DNA of 64,000 bases from Patescibacteria group bacterium. Lineage in GTDB: Bacteria > Patescibacteriota > Microgenomatia > UBA1400 > PJMF01. The translations under genes were made by a program, and so were the position numbers. The notes beneath the pieces are model-generated. The model ran no database searches. It worked only from the letters and a program-made list of their open reading frames with translations, and was not told where the DNA came from. Numbering within the stretch: the stretch's first letter is position 1; the number at the start of each line of letters is the position of its first letter. The stretch covers positions 896,153 through 960,152 of the forward strand of contig BOKR01000001.1 of assembly GCA_016861085.1 (NCBI GenBank), given 5' to 3'. This document shows positions 800-63,331 of this stretch, piece after piece.

Positions 800-2206
800 T
801 TAATTCACTTTTTTGTAAATTCTTTGATCACCCTGTTTGTATAGTACTGTGTAATTTGGATCAATCTCCAATGTTTTGATTAAAGCTTCATAATTCTTTA
901 TCCCTAAAAAATTGTTAGGTTCTTGACCTTTACGTGCATCAATAACAATATAATCGGGATTAAAATCTGAGTAATTCTCTCGCAAAAAATACACTTTTCT
1001 ATATGCTAATTTTGCTGCAATATTTGTTTGAGCCATCACCACTCCATCTTCTGGTATATGCTGAATCAATCTATCGAGAAATTCATGATTTTTTGTATTT
1101 TGGTAAAATGCCTTATTTGTAAATAAAAGTGCGGGAGATTTCAAAATTTGTGTACTAAAAATTAGGCTGAAAATGGCTAAAAAAAGTAATGCATATTTAA
1201 AATATTCATTAGGAATTCTTTTTACTTTTGTCAAAATTATTTTTTTAAGTCTTCTGTACCCATATGCTGTTCCTAAAATTAAAGTTGGGGCAATTTCTGC
1301 ATTATAATGCATGCCTAAATCAAAGTTCCCAAATCGTAAAATCCGCAGTAACCAATTAAATAAAACTGGACCTACAGTTTCTGGAGATAAAAGCGGTAGA
1401 AATCCAAAACTCAGCAATGTCTTAACAATTGACTTAAGTGTTAATTGATCAAAGAATGATAGACTCGCATTTTTTGCGCTCGTGTCTGACAAGTAGTAGT
1501 ATCCCTCCCCATTAATTGCGGGTATCACCATAAAAATAATTAATAAACTATACAAAATAGAACCAAAAACAGTGGCTAGTCCAATCTTTCTCCATAACCC
1601 TTTGTTTTTCACTGCAATTAGCAATCCAAACCAAACTGGGATGAAAAAAACTGTTTCTTTTGTAAGAAGAATTCCTGCTAGTCCTAAAACATACCACCTA
1701 AAATGTTTTTTAACCATCCCATACAAAAATATAGTCAACGGCAATGGTAACAATACAATTTCGTGGAACTCTGTGATCAAAGCATTATGTAAACCGATAA
1801 AAGAAAAGTAGATAACTAAAATACAAAAAGCTTCAAACTTATTCTTCAAAATTTCTTTGGCAATTAAATACACAAAAATACCACTTAAAGTTACAAACAA
1901 AGTTTGAAATAGTAATAACACTTCTCCCCCTTTAAACAAAGCCATAAAGGGACTAATTAAAAAAATAATAGGATGAAAATGATCTCCCAAAATATTTTTA
2001 TCTGTAAAAACATAGTGATCAATAATTGGTGGCTGTAGCTGAGAAACTGCAGAGATAGCCTGATAAAAAATACCAAAATCATAGTACCATACGGCATATT
2101 GCCAGTAACGATGTAATGAAACCGTAACAAAGACTAAAAAAAACGCACTTAATAGTGCCAAAAGTGTTATTTTTTCGCTAACTTGCTTTTGCATAATAAT
2201 ACCCAT
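800..2206 (-). CDS. Polytopic membrane protein, DUF2079-like (putative membrane glycosyltransferase)
   Basis: 468 aa with roughly 12 predicted TM helices and a conserved GDHFHP-type motif. The architecture is typical of the DUF2079 / GT-C-like family. Confidence 0.5.
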   Translation of the reverse strand: MGIIMQKQVSEKITLLALLSAFFLVFVTVSLHRYWQYAVWYYDFGIFYQAISAVSQLQPPIIDHYVFTDKNILGDHFHPIIFLISPFMALFKGGEVLLLFQTLFVTLSGIFVYLIAKEILKNKFEAFCILVIYFSFIGLHNALITEFHEIVLLPLPLTIFLYGMVKKHFRWYVLGLAGILLTKETVFFIPVWFGLLIAVKNKGLWRKIGLATVFGSILYSLLIIFMVIPAINGEGYYYLSDTSAKNASLSFFDQLTLKSIVKTLLSFGFLPLLSPETVGPVLFNWLLRILRFGNFDLGMHYNAEIAPTLILGTAYGYRRLKKIILTKVKRIPNEYFKYALLFLAIFSLIFSTQILKSPALLFTNKAFYQNTKNHEFLDRLIQHIPEDGVVMAQTNIAAKLAYRKVYFLRENYSDFNPDYIVIDARKGQEPNNFLGIKNYEALIKTLEIDPNYTVLYKQGDQRIYKKVN

Positions 2207-5200
2207 TTATCATACAATGAGTATATAGTGTCCAGACCAAAAGTAGCTAGCCAGAAATTTCGTATTGTCTCTATTTTATTGTTGATGATTTTTTTGTACT
2301 TAGCCAAACCAGCCCACGCGGTTATCGGTGTCACTCATACTATCTCGACCCCAGCTAATTTCAACTTTCGTATTGACGGAGCTTCAGCTGATCATCAACT
2401 GGGCTATAACGGTGTAAGTGTAAAACAAAAGACCTATCACGATATCAATAACGATGGAAAACTAGATCTAGTCATTGGTGCCACACTTACTGACTATAAT
2501 AGCAAAGCTAATTCCGGTTCTGTTTATATAATTAGTGGGGACATCCTAGATAATTATGCTGGAACTGGAAACACTATCGACTTAGCTGATAGCAGTAACT
2601 ATTCCCTTCGTATCGATGGTCGTGTGGCTGGCGGTACACTTCCAGCTAGTAGTGGTATTATTTTTGCTGACATTAACAATGATGGTCAAGACGATATGAT
2701 TATGAGTGAATCTTTTGCTGATGGCACTCGAGGGAATGTATATATTCTCTATAGTAATCTATACTCTAGTTTCTTGAACTCAACCGGCAACACAATGGAT
2801 TTGGGAATCGATACTAACTATAACCTCTTACTCCAGGGAGCAAGTACAGGTGACTCATTTGGAAATCTCTCGCTGAGTGCAGTTGACCTTGATAATGACA
2901 GCAAGAAAGATATTCTTCTTGAAGCCCATCACGATGATAACAATAGCAGAGGTGAATCTGGATCTGTATTCATCTTTTTTAATTCATTACTTGATGACTT
3001 TTCAGGTACAGGTAACTTACTTAATGTTGGTACTTTGAGCAATTTCAGTGTTCGTATAGACGGAGCTGCAGCCGGTGACACATTTGGTGGAGGTAGTACA
3101 ACTGCAGGCGACTATGATGCTGACGGTGACATTGACCTTATTATAGGATCAGACCTAACTGATTATAATGGTTCTGATACAGGATCTATCTGGATTATTG
3201 ATAATTCAAAAATTTCTTCTTTGGCTGGAACGACTGGGAATCTCATAGATATGGCAACTTCGACTAACTGGGTTGTCAGAATGGATGGCGTTAATGTAGG
3301 TGACAGAATCACCTACGCTAATAGTTTGATTTTTGAGGATATTAACCATGATGGGCTAAAAGATATTGTTGTTGGTGGCTATAATGCAGATAATAATTCA
3401 CGATCAAACTCAGGAAGTCTGTATCTTATTGATAACTCATTTTTTTCGTCACAAACTGGAAGTGGAAATGTCTTGGATATTGACGGAAACTTTATTGCCA
3501 GAATTGATGGGGCTTTAGCTAGCGATAACTTTACCTTCGCAGCACTTGCAGTTGAAGATGTCAATGGAAATGGAAGAAAAGATATTCTTGCCGCATCTAG
3601 ATTATCAAACACTAATGGTACTGACTCAGGAGCTGTTTATGTATTTTTTGACTCATTAATTGATACCTGGTCAAATGGTTCATTGGTTGACCTTGCTACA
3701 ACTACTAATTTTTCTATTCGATATGACGGCAATACCGGTGACAACCTATTTTTTCAAAATGGATATATGGCTGACTTTAATAACGACTCTCAACTAGATT
3801 TCATTTTTAATGCAAGAACAGCCGATTATAATAGCCGGACCAATTCAGGTTCGTACTACTTCTTCTATAATTTCCCACACACAATCGGTACTCCCACTGC
3901 TGTAAACTCAGAAAACACCACTATTACAATTAATGGAGATGTAACTGCACCAAATTCAGTGACGACTATCGCACAAGTTCAGTACTCTGTAGATTCTAAT
4001 GATCCAAATAGTGGTAACTGGCACGATTGTATTGCAAAGGATGGCGCTATGGACAGTCTGAGTGAGGCCTTTGCCTGTACTCTTGATACAGAAAATACAG
4101 GTAATCACACCATTTACATTCGCGCTATTGATGTAGACGGGTTCATGACTGCTCAATCACATTACAAGACTGTTCAGTATAACTTCCAACCAGCAACAAC
4201 AACATGCCAAGATAGTATTTCTTCAGCTGCCCCTGATTTGTTTCAGATTAATACTGATGTAACTTCTGCAACTGTATACTTTACTCCTATTGGCGGCGTT
4301 ACTGATTATTTCATTAGCTTTTCGACCAATCAGAATGCTGAAGAACATGGTGCGGCTGTGACACTTTCTGATTCTGGAGTCCAAAGTTACACTGTTGACC
4401 TTTTGTCACCCAATACCACATATTATTTTAAAGTTCGTGGACAAAGTGGTTGTATGCCTGGAAGCTGGAGTAATATCAAAGAGGCAAAAACACAATCAAC
4501 TCAATCCCTTCCTACAATTTCAAGAATAATCCCAACCGTTACACCTACCCCAATCCCTTCGGTATCGCCAACGCCATCACCTTCTGCAAGCCCTGGTGTT
4601 GAAGCATCACCTGAACCGACTGAAACTTCAAATACCCCAATACTCAGCACTCTCCCAAAACTTGTTGACTCAATAAGGGAAACTATAAACAGTGAAAACT
4701 TACCTGGTACAATCCTGGGTACGATCGTTACAATGGCTGAGGGATTGAAACAATTGATTGCACTCTTAGGTGGTGGTGTTGCAGTTTTTGCTACTACTTC
4801 AGTACTAACAATAGTAACAGTTACCACTCAAGTCATTAGGCTTGGCAGAAAACACATTCGTGACGTTTTTGATAATGTGTTACATGCACTTGGTTTCATC
4901 CAACATAATCATCCGCAAGGAATGGTCTATGATGCTCTAACAAATGATCCCATACCATTTGCTGTAATTACAATTACATCAACTCAAAATGTTGCAAATC
5001 AACGAATCCAAGAAACAGTTGTTACTGATGTCAATGGGGTATACCAAGATGTTCATTTATTAGTCGGTAGCTTCGCTATGAACGTTGGCCATCAGGATTT
5101 TAACTTTCCAACGAAAAAACAAAGACCTCAATTCTTAACGCAAAAACAATTTTATAAAGGTGAACAGTTTGACGTAACTTCTGAGTCATCCTCACAATTA

Positions 5201-5716
5201 TTTATGGTACCTATGGATAAAGTTATACCTGCAAGCACCATGAAGAAGTTAGGAAAATCAGTAAAACGATCAATCGATCAGATCAATATTATTAATTTAT
5301 TTTGGCCTCTTTTTATTTTCTCAGTAGTTTCAACAGCACTGTATCCAACCACTCTCAATGCAGCTATTCTTGGTATTCAGGCAGTCGTAGTGTTAAAAAA
5401 ATCGAATACATTTTTGAAGAAGCCAACAATATCAGGTCGCATAATAAATACAAAAAATAGACCCATTCAAAACGCGATTATTCGTGTTACTGATCCACAA
5501 AAAAGTGAACTAATAGCTCTGACTGTTTCAAACAAAAATGGATTTTACAAAGTATTCGCTAAACCAGGAATATATCAATTCGAAGTTATTAAACAAGGTT
5601 ACTTCTGGAAAAAAACCACAGGACAAATGAGTTTAGAACTGATTGATGTTACCAAAGAATCTAAGACTCAAAACGTCACTCTTTCTGACATCTCTAAAAT
5701 CGGGCCTCTTGTATAG
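2183..5716 (+). CDS. Large surface protein: 7x FG-GAP (integrin-alpha-like beta-propeller) + FN3/Ig-like region + Pro/Thr/Ser linker + TM segments + C-terminal CarboxypepD_reg/Cna-B-like domain
   Basis: There are seven D-x-N/D-x-D-G-x-x-D calcium-loop repeats (DINNDGKLDLVIGA, DINNDGQDDMIM, DLDNDSKKDILL, DYDADGDIDLIIG, DINHDGLKDIVVG, DVNGNGRKDILAA, DFNNDSQLDFIF). A PTPIPSVSPTPSPSASP linker, hydrophobic TM stretches and a C-terminal ISGRIINTKNRPIQNAIIRV...NGFYKV block follow. The track start (2183) is a TTG. A better start is GTG 2228, which gives the signal peptide (M)SRPKVASQKFRIVSILLLMIFLYLAKPAHA. Confidence 0.8.
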   Translation: MLLHNNTHLSYNEYIVSRPKVASQKFRIVSILLLMIFLYLAKPAHAVIGVTHTISTPANFNFRIDGASADHQLGYNGVSVKQKTYHDINNDGKLDLVIGATLTDYNSKANSGSVYIISGDILDNYAGTGNTIDLADSSNYSLRIDGRVAGGTLPASSGIIFADINNDGQDDMIMSESFADGTRGNVYILYSNLYSSFLNSTGNTMDLGIDTNYNLLLQGASTGDSFGNLSLSAVDLDNDSKKDILLEAHHDDNNSRGESGSVFIFFNSLLDDFSGTGNLLNVGTLSNFSVRIDGAAAGDTFGGGSTTAGDYDADGDIDLIIGSDLTDYNGSDTGSIWIIDNSKISSLAGTTGNLIDMATSTNWVVRMDGVNVGDRITYANSLIFEDINHDGLKDIVVGGYNADNNSRSNSGSLYLIDNSFFSSQTGSGNVLDIDGNFIARIDGALASDNFTFAALAVEDVNGNGRKDILAASRLSNTNGTDSGAVYVFFDSLIDTWSNGSLVDLATTTNFSIRYDGNTGDNLFFQNGYMADFNNDSQLDFIFNARTADYNSRTNSGSYYFFYNFPHTIGTPTAVNSENTTITINGDVTAPNSVTTIAQVQYSVDSNDPNSGNWHDCIAKDGAMDSLSEAFACTLDTENTGNHTIYIRAIDVDGFMTAQSHYKTVQYNFQPATTTCQDSISSAAPDLFQINTDVTSATVYFTPIGGVTDYFISFSTNQNAEEHGAAVTLSDSGVQSYTVDLLSPNTTYYFKVRGQSGCMPGSWSNIKEAKTQSTQSLPTISRIIPTVTPTPIPSVSPTPSPSASPGVEASPEPTETSNTPILSTLPKLVDSIRETINSENLPGTILGTIVTMAEGLKQLIALLGGGVAVFATTSVLTIVTVTTQVIRLGRKHIRDVFDNVLHALGFIQHNHPQGMVYDALTNDPIPFAVITITSTQNVANQRIQETVVTDVNGVYQDVHLLVGSFAMNVGHQDFNFPTKKQRPQFLTQKQFYKGEQFDVTSESSSQLFMVPMDKVIPASTMKKLGKSVKRSIDQINIINLFWPLFIFSVVSTALYPTTLNAAILGIQAVVVLKKSNTFLKKPTISGRIINTKNRPIQNAIIRVTDPQKSELIALTVSNKNGFYKVFAKPGIYQFEVIKQGYFWKKTTGQMSLELIDVTKESKTQNVTLSDISKIGPLV

Positions 5717-5731
5717 CTACTGTGTTATAAC

Positions 5732-5764
5732 AAAAAATCGCGCCTGTTTTTTTTACAGGCGCGA
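5732..5764. terminator. Rho-independent terminator (bidirectional hairpin between convergent genes)
   Basis: A perfect 9-bp stem tcgcgcctg/caggcgcga with a T8 loop. It is flanked by an A6 run on the + strand, which becomes a U-run after the stem on the minus-strand transcript of the 5794-6765 gene. Confidence 0.6.
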
Positions 5765-5793: not shown

Positions 5794-6765
5794 TTATTTT
5801 CTAAATTTATTCACTATTTTGCTGACAATCCAAACCACTGGGGCCCAAACAACTGAGTAAACAGCTACCCAAATACCAAATACCCCAAGAACTTTAAGAA
5901 AAGATTTGAGTGATTCCCATGCTCGTTGCAATTCATACTCAAAATCACCTGTTGTACCAGGATTAAAGTATTTCTCATTACTTGCTGCGGTAACACTTAA
6001 CGAAGCATACTTAGTTCTAGTTGTAACAGACTCTTGGGCTTTTTGAGCTGCCTCAATTTGTCGCGTTAAACGATCAATTTCTATTTGAATTTTTGCCTTA
6101 GCGGCTTCTGTTTTGGCATCCTTAAGTTGTGCCTCTTTTAAGGTCTTTTGTTCTTGTAAATAGGTTACCGTTTCTTCAGTATTTACAACTTGCCCAGTAA
6201 TATCTGAAGCATTTAAAGACTCGTCAATCACTTTTTTGACGTCTTCTGTTACTCTTGTAGTTGCTTCATCAAATTTCTCGACTGGAACTTTTACGTATAA
6301 GGAAGCACTTTCATACTTTGAACTCGAGTTCACAGAAGAACTCAAAATCACTCCATTAATACTAGAAAAATATTCTTTCAAGCCACGCATGTATTTTGTA
6401 ACGTCACTAACAACTACTGAGTGATACGATGACTTCTCGTATGAGCGCTCTTCCATGTAGAGCACATCGTCACCGTAATAATACGGTGGCATAATCTCGA
6501 CCGGTTGCACCATCATTCCTGAGTCAATACCAACTGAATCTACTGCAAGCTTAGTCTCCATCACCGGAGTGGCGGTAACACCACCATACATCATTGGTTC
6601 AGGTACTGCATACCCTCCACCAACACCATCCATCATGTAATCTCTACCCATCATTTGGCTAAGCAGGTTGTATCCCATGTTGCTTCTGCCAACAAAGAAA
6701 ACGGTTGTGAGAAGGGCAAGACTAACTACTACCAAAAGGAAGTGTTTTTTTTGCATATGCTTCAT
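5794..6765 (-). CDS. DUF4349-like membrane-anchored coiled-coil protein
   Basis: N-terminal TM, a Met-rich segment, a central coiled coil (KEAQLKDAKTEAAKAKIQIEIDRLTRQIEAAQKAQ) and two C-terminal TM helices. This is the typical DUF4349 architecture. Confidence 0.45.
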   Translation of the reverse strand: MKHMQKKHFLLVVVSLALLTTVFFVGRSNMGYNLLSQMMGRDYMMDGVGGGYAVPEPMMYGGVTATPVMETKLAVDSVGIDSGMMVQPVEIMPPYYYGDDVLYMEERSYEKSSYHSVVVSDVTKYMRGLKEYFSSINGVILSSSVNSSSKYESASLYVKVPVEKFDEATTRVTEDVKKVIDESLNASDITGQVVNTEETVTYLQEQKTLKEAQLKDAKTEAAKAKIQIEIDRLTRQIEAAQKAQESVTTRTKYASLSVTAASNEKYFNPGTTGDFEYELQRAWESLKSFLKVLGVFGIWVAVYSVVWAPVVWIVSKIVNKFRK

Positions 6766-62963: not shown

Positions 62964-63028
62964 TTATATTTCCACACACTAGAGAATTATTATTGATATA
63001 AACTATATCTTGAAGCTGATACTCATTG

Positions 63029-63102
63029 TACCAGGGGTGAGAGTTGAACTCACGACCTTGGGTTTATGAATCCCATGCTCTAACCAACTGAGCTACCCTG
63101 GC
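63029..63102 (-). tRNA. tRNA with CAT anticodon (Met elongator, initiator or Ile2/lysidine)
   Basis: Reverse complement is GCCAGGGTAGCTCAGTTGGTTAGAGCATGGGATTCATAAACCCAAGGTCGTGAGTTCAACTCTCACCCCTGGTA. This folds as a cloverleaf with a canonical D-arm and T-loop and a uuCAUaa loop. No CCA is encoded. Confidence 0.8.
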
Positions 63103-63252: not shown

Positions 63253-63321
63253 CGCGGGGTAGTGTACGGTGCACGTGAGGCTCATAATCTCACAGGCCGG
63301 GTTCGACTCCCGGCCCCGCAA
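63253..63321 (+). tRNA. Atypical tRNA with CAT anticodon, C1·A72 mismatch (initiator-like) and reduced D-arm
   Basis: CGCGGGGTAGTGTACGGTGCACGTGAGGCTCATAATCTCACAGGCCGGGTTCGACTCCCGGCCCCGCAA. The acceptor and T-arm are near-identical to E. coli tRNA-fMet. The anticodon loop is cuCAUaa. The D-arm has a 3-bp stem and a 7-nt loop, for a total of 69 nt. Confidence 0.55.
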
Positions 63322-63331
63322 CACTAAAAAA

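What the first reader, a model, noticed from the sequence alone, without database searches (positions are those of the whole stretch)
2183..5716. 1177-aa integrin-like (7x FG-GAP) surface protein with C-terminal CarboxypepD_reg/Cna-B-like domain after TM segments
Seven calcium-binding FG-GAP loops would form an integrin-alpha-type beta-propeller. They are followed by FN3/Ig-like modules, a PT/S-rich stalk, hydrophobic membrane segments and a C-terminal beta-sandwich domain. In an organism with reduced metabolism (likely an epibiont or symbiont) such a protein is a prime candidate for host-cell attachment. The use of a non-ATG start (TTG 2183 or GTG 2228) is also notable.
Basis: partly seen in the sequence, partly recalled or inferred. 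Interest (0 to 1): 0.6.

Follow-up and report, generated by a model that had tools for sequence, protein, structure and literature searches.

The report
Integrin-like surface protein with shared anchor
This gene from an ultra-small Patescibacteria (CPR) bacterium encodes an exported protein with a calcium-loop, integrin-like seven-blade propeller head on a stalk; the head is an ordinary family in these bacteria, but it is tethered by a conserved ~300-residue C-terminal membrane-anchor cassette, found at the end of hundreds of other CPR surface proteins, for which I found no family model or paper.

Summary
The ORF 2183..5716 (+) is real. Its likely start is GTG 2228, giving 1162 aa and a canonical signal peptide. 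It is 100% identical to a hypothetical protein of the MAG 'Patescibacteria group bacterium BroJett025'.

The head has seven ~75-aa FG-GAP repeats, each with a DxNxDGxxD calcium-loop motif. AlphaFold2 folds them with pLDDT above 90, and the best solved-structure matches are integrin alpha chains. A disulfide-bearing Ig-like domain, an FN3 domain and a P/T/S-rich stalk follow.

That region is actually a conserved ~300-aa module: TM helix, transthyretin-like sandwich, two-helix membrane hairpin, second sandwich. Related modules occur in 264 protein clusters (E<=1e-10). In 134 of 135 representatives the module sits at the extreme C-terminus, on passengers of 261-4586 aa. The commonest carrier lies next to Pam-pilus-like genes.

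Flanking charges place both sandwiches in the cytoplasm, but this is inferred. Host attachment is plausible and untested. The non-ATG start is unremarkable. The head is a new member of a known kind. The anchor cassette appears undescribed.

The parts
2228..5716 (+). Coding sequence from the preferred GTG start to the stop codon (1162 aa). The ORF extends upstream to TTG 2183. NCBI annotates ATG 2285 (1143 aa).
   Evidence: The GTG start gives an n-region (K5, K10, R12), an h-region and AHA|V. The ortholog P0002 has a signal peptide of matching length. The ATG 2285 start would leave a 12-aa leader with no charged n-region.
2228..2320 (+). Sec-type signal peptide (residues 1-31, predicted cleavage after AHA).
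   Evidence: Hydropathy peak of 1.92 at residues 5-36. AF2 predicts a helix at 8-25. No dedicated signal-peptide predictor was available.
2360..3877 (+). Seven-blade FG-GAP beta-propeller (residues ~45-550). Each ~75-aa repeat carries a DxNxDGxxD calcium-loop motif.
   Evidence: Pfam. Motif count 7 against 0.06 expected. AF2 pLDDT above 90 with 4 strands per repeat. Foldseek hits to integrin alpha.
3881..4192 (+). Ig-like beta-sandwich (residues ~552-655), conserved across the whole FG-GAP head family. W598, C601 and C617 are nearly invariant, which suggests a disulfide.
   Evidence: Alignment A1 consensus and near-invariant columns. AF2 pLDDT 93-97.
4205..4492 (+). FN3 domain (residues ~660-755; Pfam match 669-749) with Cys660 and Cys742.
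   Evidence: Pfam fn3 E 3.6e-6. PDB sequence hits to neogenin FN3. AF2 pLDDT ~80. The Cys pair recurs in P0002, P0003, P0004 and P0121.
4493..4693 (+). P/T/S-rich low-complexity stalk (residues 756-822).
   Evidence: 55% P+T+S. AF2 pLDDT below 50, i.e. disordered.
4769..4837 (+). TM1 of the C-terminal module (residues ~848-870), a stop-transfer helix. A juxtamembrane helix follows at 873-887 (family motif LQALGL).
   Evidence: Hydropathy. AF2 module model helices 26-48 and 50-64, equal to residues 849-871 and 873-887. Family conservation.
4916..5227 (+). Module sandwich 1 (residues ~897-1000): a transthyretin/CnaB-like domain with family motifs ETVVTD..G.Y, HQDY.FPT, DFY.GE and IP.DP.
5288..5401 (+). 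Membrane helical hairpin (residues ~1021-1038 and 1042-1058), with a conserved Pro and Asn at the turn and K/R-rich flanks on both sides.
   Evidence: AF2 predicts two helices in both models. The Pro is conserved in >=90% and the Asn in >=80% of 135 sequences. K+R is 3.66 and 3.48 per ~17 aa on the two flanks.
5423..5692 (+). Module sandwich 2 (residues ~1066-1155): CarboxypepD_reg / transthyretin-like domain.
   Evidence: Pfam PF13620 E 3e-13. Profile hit to a NOMO2 sandwich at 1.5e-11. AF2 pLDDT 94-97.
5738..5764 (.). GC-rich 10-bp-stem hairpin in the 77-bp gap between this gene and the convergent DUF4349 gene. It is terminator-like.
   Evidence: This is a consensus scan only, and the number of such sites does not exceed the shuffle expectation.

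Best explanation
This is a Sec-exported, membrane-tethered surface receptor or adhesin of a Patescibacteria (CPR) bacterium. It is built from two cassettes that circulate independently in this group.

Cassette 1 (residues ~32-800) is the ligand-binding head. It is an integrin-alpha-like seven-blade FG-GAP propeller with a calcium-loop motif in every blade. A disulfide-bearing Ig-like domain, an FN3 domain and a flexible P/T/S stalk hold it away from the cell.

Cassette 2 (residues ~848-1162) is a conserved anchor module. A stop-transfer helix takes the chain into the cytoplasm. A transthyretin-like sandwich follows, then a two-helix hairpin that dips back into the membrane, then a second sandwich.

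The most likely working model is as follows. The head binds a surface component of a partner cell in a Ca2+-dependent way, either protein or glycan. The three-helix, two-domain anchor holds the protein in the membrane far more firmly than a single helix could. It also offers cytoplasmic surfaces for clustering or for a partner protein.

Shown here: the domain architecture, the fold, the export signal, the mosaic origin, and the distribution and C-terminal position of the module. Inferred: the topology of the module, the Ca2+ and ligand binding, and the adhesin role.
For: Architecture and fold.

Organism: one search gives 100% identity to BroJett025_08930 on a 1.17-Mb contig. The neighbouring genes are housekeeping.

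Head family: 155 relatives have E<=1e-5, and those that carry a name are mostly Microgenomates, Roizmanbacteria, Woesebacteria or Patescibacteria. The propeller plus Ig unit is conserved.

Mosaic origin: residues 1-800 are 60% identical to P0004, which ends in a plain TM anchor. Residues 664-1156 are 37% identical to P0121, which has a DUF5122 propeller head. Only the syntenic ortholog P0002 among 79 head relatives carries the module.

Module family: 264 clusters at E<=1e-10 and 55 at <=1e-30. The module is at the extreme C-terminus in 134 of 135 representatives, on proteins of 261-4586 aa. Passengers include Big_13, SpaA, Big_6, DUF5122, NHL, BNR, TSP3 and Calx-beta domains. 88 of 116 carriers have an N-terminal hydrophobic leader.

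Topology: the passenger is exported, so TM1 must run out-to-in. Both flanks of the second hydrophobic region are K/R-rich across 135 sequences. AF2 splits that region into two helices at a conserved Pro/Asn turn.

Anchoring role: the commonest carrier (~690 aa) is the fourth gene after a chaperone-like / Pam-pilin-like / chaperone-like trio in 13 loci. In the Pam pilus model a FnIII protein with a C-terminal TM, PamR, anchors the filament (bioRxiv 10.64898/2026.03.03.709456).
Against: There is no binding, localisation or expression data of any kind. The cytoplasmic placement of the sandwiches rests only on the positive-inside rule and the AF2 helix break. CarboxypepD_reg and CnaB-type domains are usually extracytoplasmic. 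TM1 is only moderately hydrophobic (mean Kyte-Doolittle hydropathy 1.53). The module model has pTM 0.46, so the relative arrangement of its domains is not defined. No dedicated topology or signal-peptide predictor could be run. The Pam-pilin hits of the neighbouring genes are below the NCBIfam cutoff (18-34 bits against 55). The window gene itself is not in such an operon.
Confidence: 0.6

Rival explanations
1. The protein is the same, but the module faces outward. One or both transthyretin-like sandwiches are extracytoplasmic and bind peptidoglycan, the S-layer, or pilus chaperone-subunit complexes, rather like the C-terminal sandwich domains of a chaperone-usher usher. The second hydrophobic region would then be a single long span, or a re-entrant loop entering from outside.
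Against: K/R enrichment on both flanks of the second hydrophobic region (3.66 and 3.48 per ~17 aa, against 0.3-0.6 D/E) across 135 sequences contradicts an outside location for either flank. AF2 predicts two helices of 18 and 21 residues with a conserved Pro/Asn turn. TM1 follows an exported passenger, so sandwich 1 must begin inside.
Confidence: 0.25
2. The head does not attach the cell to a host. It is a lectin-like or enzyme-scaffold propeller used to capture nutrients or polymers, or to organise the cell's own envelope. Bacterial and fungal FG-GAP propellers include lectins and lyase-associated domains.
For: The window has no partner or host-interaction genes next to the gene. The neighbours are DUF2079, DUF4349, FtsK and RNase J. 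FG-GAP propellers also occur in free-living bacteria such as Jiella, Calditrichaeota and Burkholderiales. The comparison with a fungal integrin-like lectin rests on my own knowledge and was not tested here.
Against: The head family is greatly expanded and diversified in Patescibacteria, with variable C-terminal decorations and tandem paralogs (L001). This is the pattern expected for surface recognition proteins. No catalytic domain was detected.
Confidence: 0.25
3. The long ORF is an artefact. An assembly chimera or a missed stop or frameshift joins an FG-GAP gene that has a plain TM anchor to a separate downstream gene encoding the module.
For: Close relatives P0003 and P0004 (60% identical) end right after a single TM. 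Some database entries consist of the module alone, at 261-350 aa.
Against: The frame is uninterrupted across 1162 codons. An independent ortholog from another sample (P0002, 59% identical, 1162 aa, syntenic locus L002) has exactly the same architecture. P0121 shares the contiguous FN3-linker-module cassette. At least one short entry, P0129, belongs to a cluster that also holds a 612-aa member, so it is probably a truncated gene call.
Confidence: 0.02
4. It is a true integrin-alpha homolog that works as a heterodimer with a beta-like (VWA / beta-I domain) subunit.
For: The best structural matches are integrin alpha chains over 700-890 alignment columns.
Against: Sequence identity is ~12%. All seven blades carry Ca loops, whereas by my recollection only the last three or four do in integrins. 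There is no GFFKR motif and no single-pass short tail (direct reading). The 19 neighbouring genes scanned contain no VWA or beta-I domain protein.
Confidence: 0.03

Closest known systems
Eukaryotic integrin alpha subunits (e.g. alphaIIb 8t2v_A / 3fcs_A, alphaV, alpha5)
   Same: Both have a seven-blade FG-GAP beta-propeller head with DxDxDGxxD-type calcium loops, followed by beta-sandwich leg domains, a membrane span and a cytoplasmic portion. Integrin alpha chains are the top Foldseek hits, E 3e-20.
   Different: Identity is ~12%. The repeats are ~75 aa, and all seven blades carry the Ca-loop motif. There is no GFFKR motif and no evidence of a beta subunit. The anchor is a 3-helix, two-domain ~300-aa module rather than one helix plus a short tail.
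Patescibacteria FG-GAP head family (e.g. P0012, Candidatus Roizmanbacteria A3I56_02470; P0014, Microgenomates 'FG-GAP repeat protein'; P0004)
   Same: They share the seven-repeat propeller, the conserved YNFPHTI junction and the Ig-like domain with the W/C/C signature, at 30-60% identity over residues 1-650/800.
   Different: Those proteins end in other domains or a plain C-terminal TM helix. Only the syntenic ortholog P0002 among 79 relatives carries the anchor module.
The ~690-aa 'FnIII/Big_13 + module' proteins of Pam-pilus-like gene clusters (P0122, P0123, L003-L014), and PamR of Ca. Mycosynbacter amalyticus (bioRxiv 10.64898/2026.03.03.709456)
   Same: The C-terminal module is 40% identical over ~350 aa to that of P0122. 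Like PamR, these proteins combine FnIII-type domains with a C-terminal membrane anchor and sit in a chaperone/pilin operon.
   Different: PamR as described has a single C-terminal TM helix, and the preprint does not mention this module. The window gene is not in such an operon and has a propeller head.
Short C-terminal sorting/anchor signals of surface proteins (LPXTG-sortase, PEP-CTERM, PGF-CTERM) and plain C-terminal TM tail anchors
   Same: All are position-specific C-terminal elements shared by many otherwise unrelated exported proteins of one lineage.
   Different: Those signals are 20-40 aa and are often cleaved by a dedicated enzyme. This module is ~300 aa with two folded domains and three helices. 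No LPXTG-type motif is conserved: 'LPGTI' at 825-829 is absent from the ortholog.
CarboxypepD_reg / transthyretin-like domains (carboxypeptidase D 5aq0, NOMO2 9c7v_B, SdrD B, CnaB)
   Different: The similarity is at domain level only (about 80-120 residues aligned). No solved structure matches the TM-sandwich-hairpin-sandwich arrangement.

Membership tests
Pfam FG-GAP (PF01839) repeat proteins | Whole-protein score above the gathering threshold, with multiple repeats | tested here: met
   87.6 bits against a cutoff of 22.1, with 6 stretches. Seven Ca-loop motifs in register.
Integrin alpha subunit | Seven-blade beta-propeller fold of the FG-GAP repeats | tested here: met
   AF2 pLDDT above 90 over residues 35-550, with seven four-stranded units. 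Foldseek top hits are integrin alpha chains, E 3e-20.
Integrin alpha subunit | Single-pass TM followed by a short cytoplasmic tail with the GFFKR motif | tested here: not met
   There are three predicted helices and ~290 residues after TM1. No GFFKR motif is present in the sequence.
Integrin alpha subunit | Obligate heterodimer with a beta subunit (beta-I / VWA domain) | tested here: inconclusive
   The 19 neighbouring genes scanned contain no VWA or beta-I protein. The rest of the genome could not be searched.
Integrin alpha subunit | Detectable sequence homology beyond the FG-GAP repeat motif | tested here: not met
   phmmer against PDB sequences finds no integrin, only neogenin FN3 at E~3e-3. 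Structural alignments show ~12% identity.
Pfam CarboxypepD_reg (PF13620) | Score above the gathering threshold | tested here: met
   50.2 bits against 32.3, with two stretches, the best at 1067-1125.
Pfam fn3 (PF00041) | Score above the gathering threshold | tested here: met
   27.5 bits against 25 (marginal), residues 669-749. Supported by the AF2 beta-sandwich.
Patescibacteria C-terminal anchor module (unnamed; defined here) | Located at the extreme C-terminus of an exported protein | tested here: met
   The module ends 6-10 residues before the stop codon here. The same holds for 134 of 135 representatives.
Patescibacteria C-terminal anchor module (unnamed; defined here) | Order TM1 - juxtamembrane helix - sandwich 1 - two-helix hairpin - sandwich 2, with the motifs ETVVTD..G.Y, HQDY.FPT, DFY.GE, IP.DP and P...N in the hairpin | tested here: met
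   The query shows ETVVTDVNGVY, HQDFNFPT, QFYKGE, VPMDK and YPTTLN. AF2 secondary structure agrees. Module HMM E 8e-103.
Sortase (LPXTG) substrates | LPXTG motif followed by a hydrophobic segment and a basic tail at the extreme C-terminus | tested here: not met
   Only 'LPGTI' is present, at 825-829, more than 330 residues from the end. It is not conserved in the ortholog P0002.
Pam pilus system component | Encoded in an operon with Pam pilins and membrane-anchored PapD-like chaperones | tested here: not met
   The window neighbours are DUF2079, DUF4349, FtsK and RNase J. There is no second module or head copy in the 64 kb. Only relatives of the module lie in such clusters.

The most novel reading that the evidence does not exclude
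The ~300-aa C-terminal cassette would be a previously unrecognised, CPR-specific class of load-bearing transmembrane coupler. It would be a three-helix anchor whose two cytoplasmic transthyretin-like domains link surface adhesins, giant surface proteins and Pam-type pili to an intracellular partner or to each other. Ultra-small epibionts would then have an integrin-like way to connect outside and inside.
Probability: 0.2. Interest if true: 0.8.

Novelty: new variant of a known kind. Interest (0 to 1): 0.5.

Why it matters
How Patescibacteria (CPR) cells recognise and hold on to their hosts is largely unknown beyond type IV pili and the newly described Pam pili. This gene gives a concrete, well-modelled candidate receptor head that could be expressed and tested. 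More generally, it exposes a conserved C-terminal anchor cassette shared by hundreds of CPR surface proteins, including giants of over 4000 aa and likely pilus-base proteins. An HMM for that cassette would be a simple way to list the anchored surface proteins of any CPR genome. It would also point to possible cytoplasmic partners. If the head is just one more FG-GAP protein and the cassette is only a bulky anchor, the finding is a useful annotation but not a surprise.

Tried and rejected
1. LPXTG/sortase anchoring: 'LPGTI' at 825-829 is neither C-terminal nor conserved, so rejected.
2. Word-indexed homology search with the C-terminal 340 aa found nothing, not even the protein itself. The same search with the module alignment found only 6 proteins and no names. 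The exhaustive HMMER scan was needed.
A 7-sequence alignment worked, but it reaches only close relatives.
5. Sequence search of the PDB with the full protein found no propeller relative.
6. Second copies of the head or the module were sought in the 64-kb window: none.
7. Cluster look-up of ten module proteins for organism names returned none.
8. Literature searches for Patescibacteria with FG-GAP, or CPR with CarboxypepD_reg, returned nothing.
9. The assembly-chimera idea was rejected, because an independent syntenic ortholog has the same architecture.
10. The promoter scan around the start gave no more sites than shuffles. The start codon choice therefore rests on signal-peptide logic and comparison with the ortholog.
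Full report
**1. The observation**

The window has a single long ORF on the + strand from 2183 to 5716. It translates without interruption. Three starts are possible.
- TTG 2183 overlaps the divergent DUF2079 gene, whose start codon is at 2206.
- GTG 2228 gives MSRPKVASQKFRIVSILLLMIFLYLAKPAHA|V, a textbook signal peptide with n-, h- and c-regions.
- ATG 2285, the start used in the NCBI record (1143 aa), would leave a 12-residue leader with no charged n-region.

The 59%-identical ortholog P0002 has a leader of the same length as the GTG version. I therefore take GTG 2228 as the start (1162 aa), and residue numbers below follow it. A GTG start is common in bacteria and is not notable.

**2. Organism and context**

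The protein is 100% identical to 'hypothetical protein BroJett025_08930 [Patescibacteria group bacterium]' on a 1.17-Mb contig. The neighbouring genes are housekeeping or of unknown function: DUF2079, DUF4349, FtsK, RNase J, UDG, PNPase, DnaK, FtsH, SufB, IF-2 and NusA. The gene is one of the few on the + strand in this window. A GC-rich hairpin sits in the 77-bp gap to the convergent DUF4349 gene. The ortholog locus L002, from a different sample, is syntenic.

**3. The head**

- Pfam finds FG-GAP (E 4e-25, six stretches) and FG-GAP_3.
- The motif D-x-[DN]-x-[DN]-[GS]-x-x-D occurs exactly seven times at 72-76-residue spacing. Shuffled sequence gives 0.06 matches. Every blade therefore carries a calcium-loop motif.
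- AlphaFold2 with 77 homologs gives pLDDT above 90 for residues ~35-655, with seven four-stranded units.
- Foldseek against the PDB returns integrin alpha IIb, V, 5 and 4 chains as the top 50 hits, E 3e-20 to 5e-15. Alignments span 700-890 columns at ~12% identity.
- phmmer against PDB sequences finds no integrin, so the relationship is at the level of fold and repeat motif.
- After the propeller comes a conserved junction (YNFPHTI). An Ig-like sandwich follows, with W598, C601 and C617 nearly invariant across 77 relatives. Then comes an FN3 domain (Pfam E 3.6e-6) with a second Cys pair (660/742), and a 55% P/T/S disordered stalk.
- All four cysteines lie in this exported part.

**4. How common the head is**

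155 proteins match at E<=1e-5. Those that carry a name are mostly Microgenomates, Roizmanbacteria, Woesebacteria or Patescibacteria. More distant FG-GAP proteins come from other phyla. 'Integrin alpha FG-GAP' annotations on large exported CPR proteins were noted in 2016 (PMC4736985). The head is therefore a new member of a known kind.

**5. The tail is a conserved module**

An exhaustive HMMER scan of 1.84 billion representatives with the last 359 residues found 1798 hits at E<=1e-3, 264 at <=1e-10 and 55 at <=1e-30. Of 135 representatives that cover the module, 134 carry it at the very C-terminus, with 1-64 residues after it. The host proteins range from 261 to 4586 aa. The passengers are diverse: Big_13 (27 of 47), SdrD_B, SpaA, Big_6/7/1, DUF5122 propeller, NHL, BNR, TSP3 and Calx-beta. 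FG-GAP appears in only 1 of 47.

Family-wide conserved motifs are LQALGL.P..PQG.V.D..T..PVPFA, ETVVTD..G.Y, HQDY.FPT..RP, DFY.GE.F and IP.DP in the first half. Then comes a hydrophobic stretch with a conserved Pro and Asn. The classic CarboxypepD_reg pattern follows.

With a 36-sequence alignment AlphaFold2 models the module at mean pLDDT 83.9. The elements, in protein numbering, are:
- TM1, 849-871
- a short helix, 873-887
- sandwich 1, 898-998
- a basic helix, 1004-1018
- two helices, 1021-1038 and 1042-1062
- sandwich 2, 1068-1154

**6. Topology (inferred)**

The passenger has a signal peptide and disulfide-type Cys pairs, so it is outside and TM1 must run out-to-in. Across 135 sequences both flanks of the second hydrophobic region are strongly basic: 3.66 and 3.48 K+R per ~17 residues, against 0.6 and 0.3 D+E. 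Two independent AF2 runs break that region into two helices at the conserved Pro/Asn.

The consistent reading is a helical hairpin with both sandwiches in the cytoplasm. This rests on a statistical rule and on a model with pTM 0.46. The outward-facing alternative is kept as a rival at 0.25.

**7. Mosaic origin**

- Residues 1-800 are 60% identical to P0004, which ends in a plain TM tail.
- Residues 664-1156 are 37% identical to P0121. P0121 carries a DUF5122 propeller head on the same FN3-linker-module cassette.
- Among 79 head relatives only the ortholog P0002 has the module.

The gene is thus a fusion of two independently circulating Patescibacteria cassettes. The fusion is conserved in at least two genomes, which rules out an assembly artefact.

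**8. A functional clue for the module**

A scan of GTDB species genomes returned 15 loci. All are from Patescibacteria-type MAGs, although several are oddly titled 'Pseudomonadales'. In 13 of them the carrier is a ~690-aa FnIII/Big_13 protein. It follows three conserved genes:
- a ~320-aa protein with a signal peptide and a C-terminal TM
- a ~490-aa T/S-rich exported protein
- a ~360-aa paralog of the first

Seven of nine ~490-aa proteins tested hit NCBIfam 'CPR_Pam_pilin_C', at E 3e-8 to 2e-3. These scores are below the curated cutoff. The layout mirrors the pam operon of Ca. Mycosynbacter amalyticus. That operon has membrane-anchored PapD-like chaperones, donor-strand pilins, and PamR, a tandem-FnIII protein with a C-terminal TM proposed to anchor the filament (bioRxiv 10.64898/2026.03.03.709456).

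By analogy, module carriers include likely pilus-base anchors. This supports reading the module as a robust membrane anchor for structures that bear load. It is an inference. The window gene itself is not in such an operon.

**9. Verdict**

'Integrin-like' is correct for the fold and the general logic. Membership in the integrin family fails on the tail motif and on sequence homology, and no beta partner is in view. Host attachment is the most reasonable function for a surface propeller in an epibiont lineage, but it is untested. A lectin or nutrient-capture role cannot be excluded. The most valuable outcome is the recognition of the C-terminal anchor cassette as a widespread, apparently undescribed module.

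- Interest: 0.5
- Novelty: new variant of a known kind

Noticed in passing
L003-L014 and L017 (e.g. L005: 222-1175, 1255-2718, 2771-3934, 3897-6038): There is a conserved four-gene cluster in Patescibacteria MAGs. Two paralogous exported proteins with C-terminal TM anchors flank a ~490-aa T/S-rich protein that weakly matches NCBIfam CPR_Pam_pilin_C. A ~690-aa FnIII/Big_13 protein carrying the same C-terminal module follows. It looks like a divergent Pam-pilus operon in which the anchor protein has the large module instead of a single helix.
   Followed up: partly
L003, L005, L008, L010, L013-L017 (record titles): Several GTDB records that carry this CPR-type cluster are titled 'uncultured Pseudomonadales bacterium' or 'Pseudomonadales bacterium HK-STAS-PATE-15' (a 1.08-Mb contig). 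This is probably a taxonomic label artefact for Patescibacteria MAGs.
   Followed up: no
window 800-2206 (-) and 5794-6765 (-); L002 1542-3158 and 3163-4119: A DUF2079 membrane protein and a DUF4349 protein stay next to the FG-GAP gene in both this genome and the ortholog locus, although their order differs. From memory, DUF2079 belongs to the GT-C glycosyltransferase-like clan. If so, it might glycosylate the P/T/S stalk.
   Followed up: no
window 2206-2228: Only 21 bp separate the annotated start of the divergent DUF2079 gene (ATG at 2206, minus strand) from GTG 2228. Either the promoters lie inside the neighbouring coding sequences, or the DUF2079 start is further downstream. Its Pfam match begins at residue 41.
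   Followed up: no
L001 6001-8562 and 8601-12428: Two FG-GAP head-family genes (853 and 1275 aa) lie in tandem in a related Patescibacteria contig, next to polysaccharide synthesis genes (Polysacc_synt, GT2, Wzy_C). This suggests local paralog expansion of these surface proteins.
   Followed up: no
window 63028-63102 (-) and 63253-63322 (+): Two divergently oriented tRNA-Met (CAT) genes lie 150 bp apart. The second scores lower against the tRNA model (45.5 against 67.9 bits).
   Followed up: no
P0124, P0125, P0171, P0185, P0224, P0235, P0240, P0263 (representative proteins): Giant proteins of 2500-4586 aa carry the same C-terminal module. These are candidate giant surface proteins of CPR bacteria, all anchored in the same way.
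   Followed up: no
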